From Escherichia coli (GTDB lineage: Bacteria > Pseudomonadota > Gammaproteobacteria > Enterobacterales > Enterobacteriaceae), in NCBI RefSeq assembly GCF_030013205.1, contig NZ_CP122648.1: a stretch of 64,000 nucleotides of DNA; one strand, 5' to 3'. The notes beneath the pieces were generated by a model. The model was given only the letters and a program-made list of their open reading frames with translations, made no database searches and was not told the DNA's origin. Each line of letters opens with the position of its first letter. Position 1 is the first letter of the stretch. Of the stretch, positions 1,444-18,265 are shown piece after piece. Both the position numbers and the translations under genes were made by a program.

Positions 1444-1494
1444 TTAGTTCCCCGTCCTGAATCTTGAGAAACAGAATTTTGTGCTGTTATTCAT
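1444..1494 (-). CDS. ilvX: ilvX small peptide (16 aa)
   Basis: Minus-strand ATG AAT AAC AGC ACA AAA TTC TGT TTC TCA AGA TTC AGG ACG GGG AAC TAA = [16 protein letters not shown], immediately upstream of ilvG start. Confidence 0.6.
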
Positions 1495-1523
1495 TGTCTG
1501 CTCCTCAGTTATGTTTTTAAGGT

Positions 1524-1558
1524 CAAAAAAAACCCCCGGACCTTTCGGTGCGGGGGTC
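1524..1558 (-). terminator. ilvL attenuator terminator (GC-rich hairpin followed by U-run on minus strand)
   Basis: Plus strand aaaaaaaacccccggacctttcggtgcggggg; on the minus strand this is a cccccgcacc..ggtccggggg hairpin followed by eight U, located between ilvL and ilvX. Confidence 0.7.
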
Positions 1559-1580
1559 TTAGTTCGTTAAGGCTTGATCT

Positions 1581-1679
1581 CTAAGCCTTTCCTCGTCCAA
1601 GTGCAGCCCCGCACGGTGGGATAATAATCACCACCACGCTAATCACGACCAGGCTAATCACTCGTAGAAGGACTGTCAT
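1581..1679 (-). CDS. ilvL: ilvGMEDA leader peptide
   Basis: Minus-strand ORF translating MTVLLRVISLVVISVVVIIIPPCGAALGRGKA (Ile/Val/Leu-rich leader); stop TAG at 1581-1583. Confidence 0.8.
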   Translation of the reverse strand: MTVLLRVISLVVISVVVIIIPPCGAALGRGKA

Positions 1680-2031
1680 TTTGTCTTTTCTTGCATCTTG
1701 TTCGAAGGAATGCCTAAAGAGTTACCATAGATTTTGCGAATAGCACAAGATATTTTTTGGCCTATTTTTATGATGTCTTTAATAATTTCAAGAGAAATTG
1801 TTGTTTTTTAAAAAGAAAATAGTGAGTGAAAAAAATTCAATTTCAGTATGAATGTTGTTCCCTTCCTCGTAGTTCATCCTTTGCCCGCTGCATTTTTGCG
1901 AGCATCATTCCACCGCCAGAACAACTCAACTTCACTTACACAAATAAACCGGAATCAGCCACTAAAATTCACGAATTAGCGGGCTACAGCAGCGATATCT
2001 TATGCACATAATGGTGACTCAAGGAGGGCTT

Positions 2032-2211
2032 ATGTCACTGTCAATTGTTCATACCCGCGCAGCCCTGGGAGTAAATGCGCCCCCAATCACTGTTGAGGTA
2101 CATATCAGTAAAGGTCTACCCGGCTTAACGATGGTGGGCTTACCAGAAACAACGGTAAAAGAAGCCCGCGATCGCGTGCGCAGCGCCATTATCAATAGCG
2201 GATTTTTATAA
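2032..2211 (+). pseudogene. comM: comM (yifB) 5' fragment, truncated by island insertion after codon ~57
   Basis: Translation MSLSIVHTRAALGVNAPPITVEVHISKGLPGLTMVGLPETTVKEARDRVRSAIINSGF then diverges (L, stop) at the junction; the rest of the gene resumes at 16913. Confidence 0.85.
2194..2203. repeat. attL core copy (aatagcggat)
   Basis: Identical 10-mer at 16907..16916; lies at the exact point where the comM frame breaks. Confidence 0.5.
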
Positions 2212-2300
2212 ATTAGTGTTTTTTGCTGTTTCATAATGTGCCACGTTGTTCATTATGTTTTTGATTTTTAAGTCTATTACAATTTTCATTGTTCCAGCTT

Positions 2301-2353
2301 GTTCCACGTTGTACCCCTTTGTGCAATGATCGGTGTAGTCACTGGTGTAGTCA
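2301..2353. repeat. Subterminal left repeat (gttccacgttgt ... cggtgtagtcactggtgtagtca), candidate integrase arm-type site
   Basis: Imperfect ~55-bp direct repeat of 16781..16838 near the opposite island end. Confidence 0.45.
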
Positions 2354-2391
2354 TTTTTTTTGCAAACAGGGGAGGAAATGTGAGCAGAGCA

Positions 2392-3609
2392 ATGAACAAA
2401 CTGAGCGACACATTGTTAAGAAAACTTCATGGTAAGCCGGCGGAGAAAAATACGTTTTATAGCGATGGCGGAAATCTGAGCGTGAAATATTTAACATCAG
2501 GGAAATTGACCTGGTATTTCACTTACAGGGCGGGAACGGGAAGGGGTACACCACCGGAACGCCTGAAGCTGGGAAATTATCCTGATCTGAGCCTGAAAGC
2601 AGCCAGGGAAAAAGCAGCACAGTGTCGCGCATGGCTGGCAGAAGGAAAAAATCCACGCCATGAGCTTAATTACTCCATACAGGAAGCACTAAAGCCGGTA
2701 ACGGTGGGCGATGCGATCAGCTACTGGCTGGAAATGCACGTAAAGGAAAACCGTGTCGATTACGTATGCCTGAAAAGCCGCCTTAATAATCACGTCATAC
2801 AGCATATTGGCAATATGCCACTGGATAAATGCGAGTTACGTCACTGGCTGGCCTGTTTTGACCGGATACGCAAAAAATCACCCGTAACATCTGGCCACAT
2901 GATGCAGGCGTGTAAACAGGCGCTTAAGTTCTGCCGTAAACGTCGCTACGCAGTCAGTAACGTTCTGGATGATCTCAACGTGGTGGACGTTGGCAAAAAG
3001 CCGGGCATAAGCGAACGCGTGCTGAGCAACAAAGAACTGAGCGAATTATTACAGGCGCTGGATAAAAAAATATTCCCGCCCTACTACAGCGCACTAATCC
3101 GCCTCCTGATTGTGTTCGGCTGCCGGACCGGAGAACTGAGGCTGTCGGAGATCAGGGAGTGGGATTTTAAGGAAATGCTCTGGACAGTACCGAAAGAGCA
3201 CAGCAAAACGAAGGTCGCCATATTCAGGCCAATACCGGAAAGCATTTTGCCGTTCGTCACACAGCTGGTGGAGCAGAACAGGCACACAGGGCTATTACTC
3301 GGGGAACTGAAACAGGAAGCCAGCGTGTCGCAATACGGCAGATTCACGCACAAAAAATTAAACCATCCGCACTGGTCACTACACGATATACGGCGCACGT
3401 TTACCACGATGCTGAACGATTTAGGCGTGGATCCACATATTGTCGAACAACTCACCGCTCACCAGATGCCAGGGATGCAACGAGTCTATAACCACTCCCG
3501 TTATATCGATGCGAAACGTAATGCGCTGGATATGTGGACAGAGCGATTAGAGATACTGGCAGGTGCTCACGAAAACGTAACCACACTGCCAATAGCCAGA
3601 GAAATATAA
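2392..3609 (+). CDS. int: Tyrosine recombinase / phage integrase
   Basis: ORF 2299..3609; likely start ATG 2392 (MNKLSDT) after GGGAGGA at 2368-2376; C-terminal HDIRRTF...VYNHSRY region consistent with a tyrosine-recombinase catalytic domain; abuts attL. Confidence 0.85.
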   Translation: MNKLSDTLLRKLHGKPAEKNTFYSDGGNLSVKYLTSGKLTWYFTYRAGTGRGTPPERLKLGNYPDLSLKAAREKAAQCRAWLAEGKNPRHELNYSIQEALKPVTVGDAISYWLEMHVKENRVDYVCLKSRLNNHVIQHIGNMPLDKCELRHWLACFDRIRKKSPVTSGHMMQACKQALKFCRKRRYAVSNVLDDLNVVDVGKKPGISERVLSNKELSELLQALDKKIFPPYYSALIRLLIVFGCRTGELRLSEIREWDFKEMLWTVPKEHSKTKVAIFRPIPESILPFVTQLVEQNRHTGLLLGELKQEASVSQYGRFTHKKLNHPHWSLHDIRRTFTTMLNDLGVDPHIVEQLTAHQMPGMQRVYNHSRYIDAKRNALDMWTERLEILAGAHENVTTLPIAREI

Positions 3610-3627: not shown

Positions 3628-3690
3628 AGAACGGACACAACGTGAAACAACGAGACACAACGACGAACAACGGCGAACAATCTGGAACAA
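3628..3690 (+). repeat. Array of six ~10-bp direct repeats (RAACAACG family) downstream of int
   Basis: acacaacg tgaaacaacg agacacaacg acgaacaacg gcgaacaatc tggaacaaac read directly from sequence. Confidence 0.4.
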
Positions 3691-3976
3691 ACTTGATTAT
3701 CATCTGACCGACACCCTAAAAAGTTGATTTTCAGTCGTTTTACTGGCTTTTTGTACATTGGCGAATCACTCTTAAAAACATGTAAAAAAGGCGTAAAAAC
3801 AGAATTTTACGCTACCGCATCACAATGAATTAAAAGAGTTTTTATTCTCATTACCCCACTTCTGTAAAACGACCGCCACCAGTGTTTGCCATTCCATAAA
3901 CACCCTGACACAATCCGACCCAACCCAACCCAATAATCCACCCAATGACTCTTTAAGAAACAACAAAGGGGGAATT

Positions 3977-4165
3977 GTGTTAAGCACAGATCGCTTTATA
4001 CGTGAAAAAGAATGTCAGCAACTTACAGGCCTGAGCCGTTCATGCCGCTACCGCCTGGAAAAAGCCGGACAATTCCCATCACGGCGTAAACTCGGTGGTC
4101 GTTCCGTTGGCTGGTCTTTATCCGAAGTTCTGGCATGGAAGGACAGCCGCGAGGCAGTTCACTAA
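3977..4165 (+). CDS. alpA: AlpA-family phage transcriptional regulator (62 aa)
   Basis: GTG start after AAAGGGGGA; translation LTGLSRSCRYRLEKAGQFPSRRKLGGRSVGWSLSEVLAW resembles the AlpA/prophage CP4-57 regulator HTH. Confidence 0.7.
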   Translation: MLSTDRFIREKECQQLTGLSRSCRYRLEKAGQFPSRRKLGGRSVGWSLSEVLAWKDSREAVH

Positions 4166-4217
4166 TCAGGCTGGCGGCACACAGCCGCCTCCCATCCACT
4201 AATACAGAGATTTAACC

Positions 4218-7098: not shown

Positions 7099-8507
7099 AA
7101 AACGCACCGAGTCTAAAATATCAGCCGAAGGATAAATTCACTGAGGTAATCATTTTTGCCGGGACGGATGCTTACGCCCATGCTCAACACTGGATTGAAA
7201 GTGAAGGACGAAAACACGGCGATAACGTGCCTCCTGTTTACCTGGGGCCAAAGCAACTGGCAGACCTGGCGAATATCCGCATTATTGACGAGAAACGCCG
7301 TTTTGCGCGTGTCTATATCGCGGGGGAGATAGAGCCAATCCAGATCAATACTATCGCTGAAAAGCTGGCGCTGGCTGGCGTACAGGAGGCGAAATTATAC
7401 AAAGGTATCACCGACCAGGAACCGGAGAACTGGCGCGACTACCTGCAACGGATCCGCGAACAGGCTGAGCGCGAAGAAATGCTTACTGACGAGCAATACA
7501 GCCAGCGAAAAACCACGCTACCAATGAGCATTGGATCGGAAGGATACGATTCACAGCTTAGCTATGTGGTTAAGGGTGTGATTCCGGCTAATTCGTTGTG
7601 CAGCACATACGGTGCGAGCGGTTCTTATAAGTCGTTCCTTGCGTGTTCGTGGGCGTGTCATGTTGCTACCGGTATCCCGTGGGGAGGTCGCAGGGTTGTA
7701 CATGGTGCGGTGATGTATGTCGTTGGTGAGGGCGGGATCGGTGTTCCTCGTCGTATCAAGGCATGGGAACTGGTGAACAGTGAGCAGGTGAAAAATCTGT
7801 ACCTGGTAAATCGTCCAATTTTTCCGGCCGCACCGAGTGATGTTGATGAAATGGTTATTGCTGCCCGACAGGTTGAGCAGGAAACGGGTAAACCTGTACG
7901 CATGATTATTCTGGATACTCTGGCGCGTTGCTTTGGTGGCAGCGATGAAAATGATGCGCGGGATATGGGGGCATTTGTCCATGGATGTGACGAACTGAAA
8001 CGGCGTACAGGCGCTACAGTGCTGGTAATTCACCATTCCGGCAAGGATGAAACAAAGGGTGCGCGCGGTTCCAGTGCGTTTCGTGCAGCACTGGATGCAG
8101 AGTACCGGATACGCCGTGAAGGTGCAGGCAGTGAAGCCCTGGTTATCGCATGTACCAAGATGAAGGATGCGGAGGAACTGAAAGAAATGGCTTGCGATTT
8201 GCGCGAGGTTGAGCTTTTCAAGGATGAAGGCGGGGAGTTAATCACGTCATTGGTGCTGGAGGATAAGCCCCGTCCGCCAGTTGAACTGGAGCGCATCGAG
8301 TACGCTGCTAACAAGACAGAGAATCACGTCGCGCTATGGGGCTGTATCCGTTCACGCACGCAACGCGGAGATAAATGCACTATCCCGTTGTTGCGCGATG
8401 ACATGAAAAAGCTGGGGTATGAGATGAAACACTTCCGGCGCTGGCTGTACAAGCTGGAAGGTGACGGCGTAATCACTATTGACGGTGATGACGTGCGCCC
8501 ACTGTAA
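7095..8507 (+). CDS. Replication helicase/primase-like protein, RecA-fold (AAA_25/RepA-like) ATPase (470 aa)
   Basis: GASGSYKSF Walker-A-like motif, MIILDTLARCFGG and LVIHHSGKDETKGARGSSAF motifs typical of RepA/DnaB-like helicases; iterons immediately downstream. Confidence 0.65.
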   Translation: MKNAPSLKYQPKDKFTEVIIFAGTDAYAHAQHWIESEGRKHGDNVPPVYLGPKQLADLANIRIIDEKRRFARVYIAGEIEPIQINTIAEKLALAGVQEAKLYKGITDQEPENWRDYLQRIREQAEREEMLTDEQYSQRKTTLPMSIGSEGYDSQLSYVVKGVIPANSLCSTYGASGSYKSFLACSWACHVATGIPWGGRRVVHGAVMYVVGEGGIGVPRRIKAWELVNSEQVKNLYLVNRPIFPAAPSDVDEMVIAARQVEQETGKPVRMIILDTLARCFGGSDENDARDMGAFVHGCDELKRRTGATVLVIHHSGKDETKGARGSSAFRAALDAEYRIRREGAGSEALVIACTKMKDAEELKEMACDLREVELFKDEGGELITSLVLEDKPRPPVELERIEYAANKTENHVALWGCIRSRTQRGDKCTIPLLRDDMKKLGYEMKHFRRWLYKLEGDGVITIDGDDVRPL

Positions 8508-16916: not shown

Positions 16917-18265
16917 ATGAATATCCGGCGAAAAAAATCACCATCAACCTTGCTCCAGCCGATCTGCCAAAAGAAGGGGGACGATATGATTTACCTATCG
17001 CCATTGCGTTGCTGGCGGCCTCAGAACAGCTTACAGCCAATAAATTAGATGAATATGAATTAGTCGGAGAACTGGCGCTTACAGGCGCTCTGCGTGGCGT
17101 TCCCGGCGCAATCTCCAGTGCAACTGAAGCTATTAAGTCGGGCAGAAAAATTATCGTCGCGAAAGATAACGAAGATGAAGTGGGGCTAATTAACGGTGAA
17201 GGATGCCTGATAGCCGATCATCTGCAGGCTGTCTGTGCGTTTCTGGAAGGTAAGCACGCTCTCGAACGCCCGAAACCAACTGATGCAGTATCCCGGGCAC
17301 AACAACATGATCTCAATGATGTTGTCGGTCAGGAGCAAGGAAAGCGAGGACTGGAAATTACCGCCGCTGGCGGGCACAACCTTTTACTGATTGGGCCGCC
17401 GGGAACAGGTAAAACAATGCTCGCCAGCCGTATTAATGGCCTGTTGCCAGATTTAAGCAATGAAGAGGCACTGGAGAGCGCGGCGATATTAAGTCTGGTA
17501 AATGCTGAATCAGTACAAAAACAATGGCGGCAGCGCCCGTTCCGCTCACCGCATCACAGTGCGTCGTTAACTGCGATGGTGGGCGGTGGTGCAATTCCAG
17601 GGCCAGGTGAAATTTCGCTGGCACATAACGGCGTGCTTTTTCTTGATGAGCTACCTGAATTTGAACGGCGTACACTGGATGCCTTGCGAGAGCCGATTGA
17701 ATCCGGGCAGATCCATCTTTCACGCACACGAGCAAAAATAACCTATCCAGCCCGTTTCCAACTTGTTGCGGCGATGAATCCCAGCCCTACCGGACATTAT
17801 CAGGGAAACCATAACCGCTGCACACCAGAACAGACATTACGTTATCTCAACCGGCTCTCGGGGCCCTTTCTCGACCGCTTCGATCTCTCACTGGAGATCC
17901 CATTACCGCCCCCCGGCATTTTGAGTAAAACGGTAGTGCCGGGAGAAAACAGCACCACCGTTAAACAACGCGTAATGGCCGCCAGAGAGCGCCAATTTAA
18001 GCGGCAGAATAAACTGAATGCCTGGCTGGATAGTCCGGAAATACGCCAATTCTGCAAGCTTGAGAGCGAAGATGCGCAGTGGCTGGAAGAAACGCTGATC
18101 CATCTGGGGTTATCGATTCGTGCCTGGCAGCGGTTACTGAAAGTAGCACGAACCATTGCTGATATTGATCAGTCCGACATTATCACACGTCAGCATTTGC
18201 AGGAGGCAGTTAGCTATCGTGCCATTGACCGTTTGCTCATCCATCTGCAAAAACTACTGACATAA
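16913..18265 (+). pseudogene. comM: comM (yifB) 3' portion, Mg-chelatase-like AAA+ ATPase, separated from its 5' end by the island
   Basis: In-frame continuation G(Y)EYPAKKITINLAPADLPKEGG...; Walker A LLIGPPGTGKTM; ends ...LIHLQKLLT. Confidence 0.85.

What the first reader, a model, noticed from the sequence alone, without database searches (positions are those of the whole stretch)
2301..2353. ~55-bp imperfect direct repeats placed subterminally at both island ends
gttccacgttgt...cggtgtagtcactggtgtagtca at 2301..2353 recurs as gttccacgttgttgcatacag...cggtgtagttaatggtgtagtcaa at 16781..16838, about 100 bp inside each junction. A shorter ccacgttgtt copy lies at 2241-2250 on the comM side. These look like integrase arm-type binding sites and help define the attL/attR architecture.
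Basis: seen in the sequence. Interest (0 to 1): 0.4.

Follow-up and report, generated by a model that had tools for sequence, protein, structure and literature searches.

The report
Integrase and excisionase docking sites at island ends
The two ~55-bp repeats are real and are most likely the accessory protein-docking sites that a phage-satellite island's integrase, and probably its AlpA helper protein, use to insert into and cut out of the comM gene; this layout is known for related islands and is not a new kind of system.

Summary
Window 2299-2357 and 16779-16837 are gap-free direct repeats (46/59 identical; local score 33 against 10.7±1.6 in shuffles). They lie 96-154 and 70-128 bp inside the junctions of a 14.7-kb satellite island that splits yifB/comM.

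The repeat has two parts:
- 3-4 TTGTTC-type units phased every 10 bp.
- A doubled 12-mer, GGTGTAGTYANT x2.

The doubled 12-mer starts 132-133 bp after the centre of the inferred 7-bp overlap and ends 76-78 bp before it in six related elements. These use five different insertion sites and include the studied satellites EcCICFT073 and O157 Sp7. The Sp7 circular junction was sequenced by others and matches my reconstruction.

The 12-mer changes with the integrase, not with AlpA. The integrase has an arm-binding N-terminal domain. I therefore read the 12-mers as integrase arm sites. The phased units also occur as six inverted copies between int and alpA, which fits sites for AlpA (excision factor and self-activator). 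Nobody has tested binding.

The same doubled-motif geometry, with a different sequence, was published for a sister integrase clade. I rate this a new member of a known kind, of moderate-to-low interest.

The parts
2032..2203 (+). 5' fragment of yifB/comM, the left chromosomal flank. It runs in the same direction as int.
   Evidence: The identical record NZ_CP122643 annotates it as a truncated magnesium-chelatase-domain gene. The in-silico excision junction restores intact yifB.
2194..2203 (+). attL copy of the 10-bp identity block AATAGCGGAT. The inferred 7-bp overlap AGCGGAT is 2197-2203. It is flanked by the chromosomal half-site TTATCAAT (2189-2196) and the island half-site TTTTATAA (2204-2211).
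   Evidence: Read from the sequence. The half-site and overlap model comes from aligning attL and attR of six elements. The sequenced Sp7 attP supports it.
2226..2255 (+). Proximal array in the P' arm: three units phased at 10 bp (CTGTTTCATA, ATGTGCCACG, TTGTTCATTA).
   Evidence: families D1 and D3. Equivalent GTGTTCG/TGTTC units sit at the same place in relatives.
2289..2328 (+). Distal phased array in the P' arm: four 10-bp units (TTGTTCCAGC, TTGTTCCACG, TTGTACCCCT, TTGTGCAATG). Candidate AlpA (directionality factor) sites.
   Evidence: Phased TTGTTY pairs give 12 hits against 3.6 expected, and 9 of the 12 fall in the three arrays. The array is conserved in all relatives.
2332..2355 (+). Doubled 12-mer in the P' arm, GGTGTAGTCACT GGTGTAGTCATT. 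Candidate pair of integrase arm-type sites. It starts 132 bp after the overlap centre and ends 24 bp before the int start codon.
   Evidence: The 12-mer sequence tracks the integrase and not AlpA.
2380..3609 (+). int, a 409-aa tyrosine integrase with an N-terminal arm-binding domain.
   Evidence: Pfam hits: Arm-DNA-bind_3 (E 4.5e-18), Phage_int_M, Phage_integrase. The N-terminal domain matches the solved CP4-like integrase N-domain 3jtz.
3631..3690 (-). Six TTGTTC-type units phased at 10 bp, inverted relative to the arm arrays. They begin about 22 bp after the int stop codon and lie about 290 bp upstream of alpA. Candidate AlpA operator.
   Evidence: (I2-I4, D13). A comparable inverted array follows int in EcCICFT073 (six units) and O157 Sp7 (three clear units), and shorter phased arrays lie upstream of alpA in L006 and L008. 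The published alpA reporter fragments start at the 3' end of int and so include this array.
3977..4165 (+). alpA, a 62-aa AlpA-family winged-helix protein. One residue differs from EcCICFT073 AlpA by my reading.
   Evidence: Pfam Phage_AlpA, E 3e-18. Matches solved AlpA-family structure 8c3t. EcCICFT073 AlpA sequence.
16769..16808 (+). Phased array in the P arm: TTGTGTCTAT, TTGTTCCACG, TTGTTGCATA and a degenerate fourth unit CAGTGCACCG.
   Evidence: Nearly invariant among 17 and 14 distinct attR variants of two clades.
16812..16835 (+). Doubled 12-mer in the P arm, GGTGTAGTTAAT GGTGTAGTCAAT. Candidate pair of integrase arm-type sites. It ends 78 bp before the overlap centre.
16878..16890 (+). 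Weak IHF-like site ATTCAATAAATTA, one mismatch to WATCAANNNNTTR. Candidate bending site between the arm module and the core.
   Evidence: My own reading of the sequence. The aligned position in the roxA/phoQ clade carries a perfect consensus, AAATCAATGGGTTG, and is conserved within an otherwise variable spacer. No such site is evident in the cspD/clpS clade.
16902..16916 (+). attR core: island half-site TTATAAAT (16902-16909) plus overlap AGCGGAT (16910-16916). The identity block AATAGCGGAT is 16907-16916.
16917..18265 (+). 3' part of yifB/comM, the right chromosomal flank.
   Evidence: Annotation of the identical record.

Best explanation
The two repeats are the P-arm copy (next to attR) and the P'-arm copy (next to attL) of a composite accessory-site module. 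The module belongs to the recombination unit of an EcCICFT073-type phage-satellite island inserted in comM. Joining the two ends gives an attP of about 300 bp with this order: phased TTGTTC units, doubled 12-mer, a spacer of about 70 bp (with an IHF-like site in some clades), half-site T[TG]ATAAAW, a 7-bp overlap (AGCGGAT here), half-site TTTTATMA, a proximal phased array, a distal phased array, the doubled 12-mer, then int.

Inferred mechanism. The four GGTGTAGT half-sites, two per arm and all in one orientation, 232-233 bp apart (about 22 helical turns), are bound by the N-terminal arm-binding domains of the integrase tetramer. The C-terminal domains hold the core half-sites and exchange strands across the 7-bp overlap. 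The TTGTTC units phased at 10 bp are cooperative sites for AlpA. AlpA would bend the arms to drive excision and, at the inverted six-unit array after int, activate its own gene. The P' module ends only 22-36 bp before the int start codon. Proteins bound there probably also dampen int expression, as shown for KplE1 IntS/TorI and P4 Int/Vis.

Shown here: the repeats, their fixed geometry and conservation, the protein domains, and the junctions. Shown by others: the sequenced circular junction of a homologue, and the need for int and alpA for excision or transfer in EcCICFT073. Inferred: which protein binds which motif, and autoregulation of int.
For: - The repeat is statistically real.
- The island boundaries are exact and excision would restore comM.
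- The integrase carries Arm-DNA-bind_3, and AlpA is present.
- Geometry is invariant. The start-to-start distance between the doubled 12-mers in reconstructed attP is 232-233 bp in six elements at five insertion sites, with integrases 67-95% identical. Relative to the inferred overlap centre, the 12-mer starts at +132/133 and ends at -76 to -78.
- The module persists upstream of int at 52-55% integrase identity in Serratia, Erwinia and Raoultella.
- Within-clade footprint: 3 of 67 and 4 of 67 module columns are polymorphic, against 22 of 65 and 21 of 73 spacer columns (Fisher p 1.3e-5 and 3.8e-4).
- The 12-mer follows the integrase and not AlpA. L007 and L008 have AlpAs 90% identical but integrase N-domains 62% identical. 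L007 has GGTGTAGTYAAT, while all four L008 half-sites have TGTGTGGTCAKT.
- TTGTTC arrays occur in both arms and upstream of alpA in every clade examined.
- RDF operators are typically direct repeats one helical turn apart, found both at att sites and at regulated promoters (PMC7498355).
- An AlpA/Vis-type RDF binds both att regions of the ROD21 island (PMC8844411).
- In EcCICFT073, int and alpA mutants fail to transfer, AlpA overexpression induces excision that depends on int, and AlpA activates a reporter fragment that includes the array. [quoted passage not shown] The EcCICFT073 AlpA differs by one residue.
- The sequenced attP of O157 Sakai Sp7 equals my reconstruction (PMC2669165 Fig. S5).
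- A natural P-core-P' junction is present in metagenomic contig L050.
- The same doubled-motif geometry, 81±2 bp upstream and 132±2 bp downstream, is published for the sister HE-PICI integrase clade (PMC10111431).
Against: - No footprint, gel shift or mutational test exists for either motif in any member I could find.
- The 12-mer difference that tracks the integrase is small: one core position, A to G, plus flanking positions.
- It rests on one informative pair of elements.
- TTGTTC units are nearly the same across AlpA variants that are 60-66% identical and across integrases 52-95% identical. Their binder therefore cannot be assigned by covariation. A conserved integrase surface or a host protein would fit equally well.
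- RDF arrays in both arms are less usual than in one arm.
- The consensus scan found no sigma-70 promoter in the P' arm, so autoregulation of int is conjecture.
- In this window the P' half-sites (…TCACT, …TCATT) differ from the P half-sites at positions 9-11. The island's integrase N-domain is also a divergent allele. This shows some tolerance in the motif and weakens strict co-evolution arguments.
Confidence: 0.6

Rival explanations
1. The integrase binds the whole module, or the assignment is reversed. In this reading the phased TTGTTC units are the integrase arm-type sites, and the doubled 12-mer is bound by AlpA or another island factor.
For: The authors who described the sister-clade doubled motif left both options open, integrase arm domains or AlpA. 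TTGTTC units are tandem, like the lambda P'1-P'3 sites. They are conserved wherever the integrase family is found.
Against: L007 and L008 have nearly identical AlpAs but different 12-mers. The HE-PICI relatives keep a doubled motif at the same geometry but show no clear TTGTTC array in attR. An integrase arm site has no obvious role 1.4 kb from the core, just upstream of alpA, whereas AlpA is known to act on that region.
Confidence: 0.17
2. A host DNA-binding protein, for example an OmpR-family response regulator or another architectural factor, occupies the phased TTGTTC arrays. This would link excision and alpA expression to host physiology. Only the 12-mers would be island-specific sites.
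For: The unit sequence barely changes across divergent integrases and AlpAs and across four enterobacterial genera. A conserved host protein would explain that. The units loosely resemble direct-repeat response-regulator boxes; the tor box is CTGTTCATAT.
Against: No array unit in the window matches the tor box within two mismatches, and the window as a whole shows no enrichment (46 hits against 52 expected). The helix-turn-helix and wing region of AlpA is itself highly conserved, which accounts for the invariant units without invoking a host factor. Excision in EcCICFT073 can be driven by AlpA overexpression alone.
Confidence: 0.08
3. The repeats are transcriptional operators only. The attL copy controls int. 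The attR copy is a remnant or controls a right-end transcript. Neither has a role in recombination.
For: The P' copy lies directly upstream of int. Overlap of attL with the int promoter, giving autoregulation, is documented for KplE1 and P4.
Against: The attR copy keeps a fixed distance to the crossover although no gene follows it. It stays with the core while the island cargo changes completely, from classical PICI to capsid-forming PICI to this island type. In EcCICFT073, AlpA did not seem to control the int promoter.
Confidence: 0.05
4. The repeats are a chance similarity, replication iterons or packaging signals.
For: None beyond the fact that they are repeated sequence.
Against: The shuffle statistics exclude chance. 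The island has separate iteron-like repeats next to its helicase gene at about 8500-8830 and another repeat cluster at 15574-15865. The module travels with int and the core, not with replication or packaging genes.
Confidence: 0.02

Closest known systems
Doubled tgTGTATTGCa motif in attP of helper-embedded PICIs (PMC10111431)
   Same: A tandem doubled motif with a 12-bp period. There are two copies per attP in the same orientation, one upstream and one downstream of the crossover. The downstream copy lies about 132 bp from the attP centre (here +132/133) and the upstream copy about 80 bp (here the motif ends at -76 to -78). The integrases are related PICI integrases with an alpA gene next door. 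The two motifs share the letters GTGTA-T.
   Different: The sequence differs: GGTGTAGTYAAT, or TGTGTGGTCAGT in the rcnR/thiM clade. [quoted passage not shown] Here the 12-mer is preceded in both arms by TTGTTC arrays phased at 10 bp, which are not evident in HE-PICI attR. Binding has not been tested in either case.
Lambda-type heterobivalent integrase arm sites (lambda P1/P2 and P'1-P'3). From memory: P2, 186, HP1 and L5 have paired arm sites.
   Same: The integrase has a separate N-terminal arm-binding domain. Repeated motifs unlike the core sites lie about 70-150 bp to either side of a 7-bp overlap. The attP spans about 300 bp.
   Different: There are exactly two tandem half-sites per arm, all in one orientation. 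The arm-binding domain is the Arm-DNA-bind_3 (DUF4102, P4/CP4-57) type. No biochemical data exist.
KplE1 IntS/TorI and P4 Int/Vis recombination modules (PMC2951348, PMC3509656)
   Same: int lies next to attL and is transcribed away from it, so arm sites and RDF sites overlap the region upstream of int. The RDF is a small winged-helix protein with several cooperative sites. In those systems both Int and the RDF repress int.
   Different: TorI sites have been described only in attL. Here the phased arrays are in both arms and also upstream of the RDF gene. In EcCICFT073, AlpA was reported not to affect the int promoter.
Dual-purpose RDFs Apl (phage 186) and Cox (P2) (PMC7498355)
   Same: Operators are direct repeats one helical turn apart. 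They are present both at the att site and at a regulated promoter region. One small protein acts as both excisionase and transcription regulator.
   Different: Apl and Cox repress promoters, whereas AlpA activates its own promoter. They belong to a different protein family from AlpA/Vis.
EcCICFT073 (prototype Gram-negative PICI) and O157 Sakai Sp7 (roxA-phoQ element encoding capsid genes)
   Same: Same integrase family: about 84% amino-acid identity for the O157 roxA/phoQ element, and 83.6% nucleotide identity across attL-int-alpA for the element that carries the EcCICFT073 integrase. AlpA is 92-98% identical. The arm modules and the int-alpA array are the same. Excision and the attP junction have been shown experimentally for these elements.
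   Different: They insert between roxA and phoQ with overlap GGACATA. The window island inserts inside comM with overlap AGCGGAT. It also carries different cargo: antA, a RepA-type helicase, ProQ/FinO, PerC, NUDIX, DUF2213 and a 679-aa lytic transglycosylase-domain protein, with no capsid genes.

Membership tests
Arm-type sites of a heterobivalent tyrosine integrase | The integrase has a distinct N-terminal arm-binding domain. | tested here: met
   Pfam Arm-DNA-bind_3 covers aa 8-95, E 4.5e-18. The domain matches the solved CP4-like integrase N-domain 3jtz.
Arm-type sites of a heterobivalent tyrosine integrase | A repeated motif, unlike the core-type half-sites, is present in both arms of attP. 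| tested here: met
   GGTGTAGTYANT x2 lies at 2332-2355 and 16812-16835. The core half-sites are T[TG]ATAAAW and TTTTATMA.
Arm-type sites of a heterobivalent tyrosine integrase | The position relative to the crossover is conserved among relatives with different insertion sites. | tested here: met
   The start-to-start distance is 232-233 bp in six elements at five insertion sites.
Arm-type sites of a heterobivalent tyrosine integrase | The motif sequence changes together with the integrase arm-binding domain. | tested here: inconclusive
   There is one concerted change: all four L008 half-sites are GTGTGGT, and that element has the most divergent N-domain and an AlpA 90% identical to that of L007. 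Serratia, Erwinia and Raoultella relatives at 52-55% integrase identity still have GTGTAGTC.
Arm-type sites of a heterobivalent tyrosine integrase | The integrase N-domain binds the sites directly and they are required for recombination. | not testable with these tools
   This needs gel shift or footprinting and site mutagenesis.
PICI-integrase doubled attP motif (HE-PICI type) | A tandem doubled motif in two same-orientation copies, about 81 bp upstream and about 132 bp downstream of the attP centre. | tested here: met
   The motif starts at +132/133 and ends at -76 to -78 in all six elements (plus my overlap assignment).
PICI-integrase doubled attP motif (HE-PICI type) | The motif sequence is tgTGTATTGCa. 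| tested here: not met
   Here the motif is GGTGTAGTYAAT. HE-PICI loci with the published motif were retrieved for comparison.
RDF (excisionase) operator array | Three or more direct repeats spaced one helical turn apart within an att arm. | tested here: met
   Units phased at 10 bp lie at 2226-2255, 2289-2328 and 16769-16808. Phased pairs give 12 hits against 3.6 expected.
RDF (excisionase) operator array | The element encodes a cognate small winged-helix RDF. | tested here: met
   AlpA, Pfam PF05930, E 3e-18. In EcCICFT073, int and alpA mutants fail to transfer and AlpA overexpression induces excision.
RDF (excisionase) operator array | The same operators are present at a promoter regulated by the RDF (Apl/Cox-like dual role). 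| tested here: inconclusive
   An inverted six-unit array lies at 3631-3690, within the fragment that AlpA activates in EcCICFT073 reporters. Its contribution has not been tested.
RDF (excisionase) operator array | AlpA binds the units. | not testable with these tools
   I found no published AlpA footprint for this family.
TorR tor boxes (host response-regulator sites) | Units match CTGTTCATAT. | tested here: not met
   No array unit matches within two mismatches. The window has 46 hits against 52 expected.
Phage-inducible chromosomal island (Gram-negative PICI type) | int next to attL, alpA downstream, a primase or helicase replication module, genes transcribed in one direction, size about 10-15 kb, and a dedicated insertion site. 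| tested here: met
   Annotation of the identical record and Pfam hits. The island is 14,713 bp by my arithmetic. The integrase-alpA module is shared with EcCICFT073. Induction by a helper phage was not tested.

The most novel reading that the evidence does not exclude
In the whole EcCICFT073 / Sp7 / capsid-forming-PICI integrase family, one fixed arm scaffold does two jobs. Four integrase half-sites 232-233 bp apart are combined with AlpA arrays phased at 10 bp in both arms, and the same AlpA operator sits upstream of alpA. A single 62-aa protein would then couple its own switch-on directly to assembly of the excision complex. Because the scaffold is constant, insertion-site choice would be reprogrammed mainly by the 7-bp overlap and loosely matched core half-sites. 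The comM-targeting lineage illustrates this: its integrase is 99% identical from aa 101 onward to one that targets the abgR-smrA intergenic region.
Probability: 0.4. Interest if true: 0.45.

Novelty: new member of a known kind. Interest (0 to 1): 0.3.

Why it matters
The result gives a concrete base-level attP model for the recombination module shared by the best-studied E. coli phage satellites: EcCICFT073, O157 Sp7 and related capsid-encoding elements, and this comM island. The model comprises core half-sites, a 7-bp overlap, four candidate integrase arm sites, and candidate AlpA arrays. These elements are being developed as delivery vehicles, so knowing which ~300 bp must be kept and which 7 bp set the target is useful in practice. 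The result also extends a published observation: the doubled attP motif reported as unique to helper-embedded PICIs has a counterpart at the same geometry in other PICI integrase clades. As biology it is an expected feature of a lambda-type integrase system.

Tried and rejected
- **Excised forms in viral contigs.** I searched for two doubled motifs 204-222 nt apart. There were 0 hits. The first-motif half of the pattern needed 20 bases, which missed L050, where the first copy is cut by the contig end. A plain-motif search then found L050 with a P-core-P' junction.
- **Excised forms in metagenome contigs.** The same gapped search gave 0 hits.
- **Wider relatives.** The genome-contig search with the integrase alignment returned only three distant loci. 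Their attR ends were not reached.
- **Same AlpA with a different integrase.** I could not find such a pair to separate the two binders. The alpA allele is found in 882 genomes and the attL-int-alpA module in 877 at ≥80% coverage (1,223 with any match), so no case of this alpA allele with a different integrase turned up in the rows listed.
- **Tor-box resemblance of the phased units.** Tested and not supported.
- **Rfam.** No RNA family was found in the island.
- **Promoter scan.** No consensus sigma-70 promoter was found in the P' arm. One candidate lies upstream of alpA at 3886-3914.
- **Literature string searches.** The motif sequences gave only irrelevant hits.
- **IHF sites.** A perfect consensus is present only in the roxA/phoQ clade, so I list it as weak for this window.

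Full report
**Context**

The window is identical over 15.1 kb to the chromosome of pig enterotoxigenic E. coli ETEC4079. A 14.7-kb island splits yifB/comM. The gene order is int, alpA, antA-type antirepressor, icd-like, RepA-type helicase, ProQ/FinO, PerC, NUDIX, DUF2213 and a 679-aa lytic transglycosylase-domain protein, nearly all on the + strand.

The 10-bp block AATAGCGGAT is present at both junctions, at 2194-2203 and 16907-16916. Joining the flanks across one copy gives a 300-nt sequence 100% identical to intact yifB. That site is uninterrupted in 5,398 of 5,426 complete E. coli genomes. The element is therefore a precise site-specific insertion.

**The observation**

The repeat is real.
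- 2299-2357 and 16779-16837 align without gaps at 78% identity over 59 nt.
- The local alignment score is 33, against 10.7±1.6 for shuffles.
- The exact decamer GGTGTAGTYA occurs four times in 64 kb, all within these two blocks, as pairs 12 bp apart.

The module has two parts:
- Three or four units of TTGTTC type phased every 10 bp (2289-2328 and 16769-16808).
- After a 3-nt gap following the last unit, a doubled 12-mer (2332-2355 and 16812-16835).

That array lies inside the island.

A fourth array of six units, in inverted orientation, lies at 3631-3690, between the int stop codon and alpA. Phased TTGTTY pairs give 12 hits in the window against 3.6 expected, and nine of the twelve fall in these arrays.

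**Relatives**

The attL-int-alpA segment matches at ≥80% coverage in 877 of 5,426 E. coli genomes, with identities from about 78% upward in the rows listed. I examined elements at five other sites:
- abgR-smrA
- roxA-phoQ, in O157:H7 and in CFT073
- cspD-clpS, two elements
- rcnR-thiM
- a second comM insertion, diverged from this one, in a baboon isolate

The cargo differs completely among them. Some are classical PICIs, some encode capsid genes, and this window's island is a third type. All have the same arm modules.

In reconstructed attP the doubled 12-mers are 232-233 bp apart, start to start, in all six elements measured.

Aligning the junctions suggests a common core layout: half-site T[TG]ATAAAW, a 7-bp overlap, then half-site TTTTATMA. 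The overlaps are:

| Insertion site | 7-bp overlap |
|---|---|
| comM (this window) | AGCGGAT |
| abgR-smrA | ATCGTGA |
| roxA-phoQ | GGACATA |
| cspD-clpS | GATAGTT |
| rcnR-thiM | ACCCGTA |

On that assignment the P' 12-mer starts at +132/133 from the overlap centre and the P 12-mer ends at -76 to -78 in every case.

Relatives in Serratia, Erwinia and Raoultella, at 52-55% integrase identity, keep phased TGTTC units followed by a doubled GTGTAGTC motif just upstream of int.

Within two clades that have many distinct attR variants, the module is nearly invariant while the spacer is variable. Polymorphic columns number 3 of 67 and 4 of 67 in the module, against 22 of 65 and 21 of 73 in the spacer.

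**Experimental anchors from the literature**

- The roxA-phoQ element of O157 Sakai is Sp7. Its circular junction was amplified and sequenced. The published L, P and R sequences match my reconstruction around GGACATATTT (PMC2669165 Fig. S5).
- EcCICFT073 carries the same integrase allele as locus L005, an AlpA that differs from the window's by one residue, both arm modules and the six-unit array after int.
- For EcCICFT073, int and alpA mutants failed to transfer. AlpA overexpression induced excision and replication, and this depended on int. AlpA activates its own promoter, and it did not seem to control the int promoter. The alpA reporter fragments start at the 3' end of int, so they include the inverted array.
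- A metagenomic contig, L050, contains a natural P-core-P' junction of the cspD-clpS clade.

**Which protein binds what**

The integrase has an Arm-DNA-bind_3 domain.

The doubled 12-mer follows the integrase and not AlpA. L007 and L008 encode AlpAs that are 90% identical, but their integrase N-domains are 62% identical. L007 has GGTGTAGTYAAT, whereas all four half-sites of L008 read TGTGTGGTCAKT.

A sister integrase clade, the helper-embedded PICIs, was reported to have a doubled tgTGTATTGCa motif. It lies 81±2 bp upstream and 132±2 bp downstream of the attP centre. The authors suggested it is bound by the four arm domains of an integrase tetramer, or alternatively by AlpA. I retrieved such loci. 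They keep the doubled motif but show no clear TTGTTC array in attR. This suggests the two components are separable.

The phased units have the form typical of directionality-factor operators: direct repeats one helical turn apart, found both at att sites and at regulated promoters. A related AlpA/Vis-type factor binds both att regions of the ROD21 island.

I therefore assign the 12-mers to the integrase arm domain and the phased units to AlpA. Confidence in the full assignment is about 0.6. Confidence that the repeats are accessory recombination sites of some kind is considerably higher (my estimate, about 0.85).

The P' module ends 22-36 bp before the int start codon. Proteins bound there may therefore also limit int expression, as shown for KplE1 and P4. 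I found no consensus promoter there.

**Rivals and rejected leads**

- The reversed assignment, or integrase binding the whole module, remains possible.
- A host factor on the phased units is possible. The tor-box resemblance failed a direct test.
- Operator-only, iteron, packaging-signal and chance explanations are disfavoured. The attR copy is tied to the crossover across cargo changes, and separate iteron clusters exist elsewhere in the island.

**Verdict**

This is a new member of a known kind: arm sites of a lambda-type integrase, with the doubled-motif geometry already described for a sister clade. Interest is moderate to low.

Noticed in passing
window 2380-3609, compared with L002 2192-3421: The integrase is a mosaic. 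Amino acids 101-409 are 99% identical to the integrase of islands inserted between abgR and smrA, but aa 1-100 are only 83% identical. The divergent patch appears to start near the second half of the P' doubled 12-mer and includes the region just upstream of int. A second, diverged comM island (PapRG-04-4) has the usual N-terminal allele and usual 12-mers.
   Followed up: partly
window 2189-2211 and 16902-16924; L002/L003 junctions: The comM target (CATTATCAAT-AGCGGAT-ATGAATATCC) matches the abgR-smrA target (CATTATTAAT-ATCGTGA-ATGAATAATC) at 20 of 27 positions. Both comM islands carry AGCGGAT at both junctions. This looks like a lineage that has been retargeted mainly through the 7-bp overlap, with an almost unchanged catalytic domain.
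   Followed up: partly
window 8500-8830: A cluster of AAAAGTGGG(T/G)A repeats lies just downstream of the RepA-type helicase gene. It includes a perfect 38-nt inverted repeat (8564-8601 and 8788-8825) around an AT-rich stretch. This is probably the island's replication origin.
   Followed up: no
window 15574-15865: A dense set of other repeats lies upstream of a small ORF that starts at 15868. There are about six copies of AAAAGTGTCAA, some inverted, and three copies of TAAG(G/A)TTT..TAAGGT. It is an unassigned regulatory or packaging-type region.
   Followed up: no
window 16640-16712; L004, L006, L008, L068 and HE-PICI right ends: A conserved segment lies just inside the right end of many PICIs, including the sister clade. 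It contains a Chi sequence GCTGGTGG paired with CCACCAGC about 50 nt downstream and a GGGGATCCCC palindrome. There is no Rfam match and its function is unknown.
   Followed up: no
window 4166-4217: A GC-rich hairpin (ggcggcacacagccgcc) lies in the 52-nt gap between alpA and the antA-type gene. From memory, a Pseudomonas AlpA acts as an antiterminator, so this could be a terminator that AlpA-modified polymerase reads through. The terminator scan did not call it.
   Followed up: no
window 2032-2380: The island sits in comM in the same orientation as the gene. Transcription from the comM promoter could therefore read through attL into int. The insertion truncates ComM after about 57 residues.
   Followed up: no
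L050 1-300 and 10380-10600 (IMGVR_UViG_3300019373_000108): This contig starts with a P-core-P' (attP) junction and ends with an attR junction into clpS-side DNA. Either two islands are integrated in tandem, or the assembly mixes circular and integrated forms.
   Followed up: partly
L080, L108 and L144, attL regions: Helper-embedded PICI attL carries a third TGTGTATTGCAA half-site 18 bp after the doubled motif, just before int. The window's family has no such third site.
   Followed up: no
window 1461-1750 (- strand): An Rfam match to Rev39_5p_UTR (157 bits) lies in the ilvL/ilvX leader region upstream of ilvG, next to comM. It is unrelated to the island.
   Followed up: no
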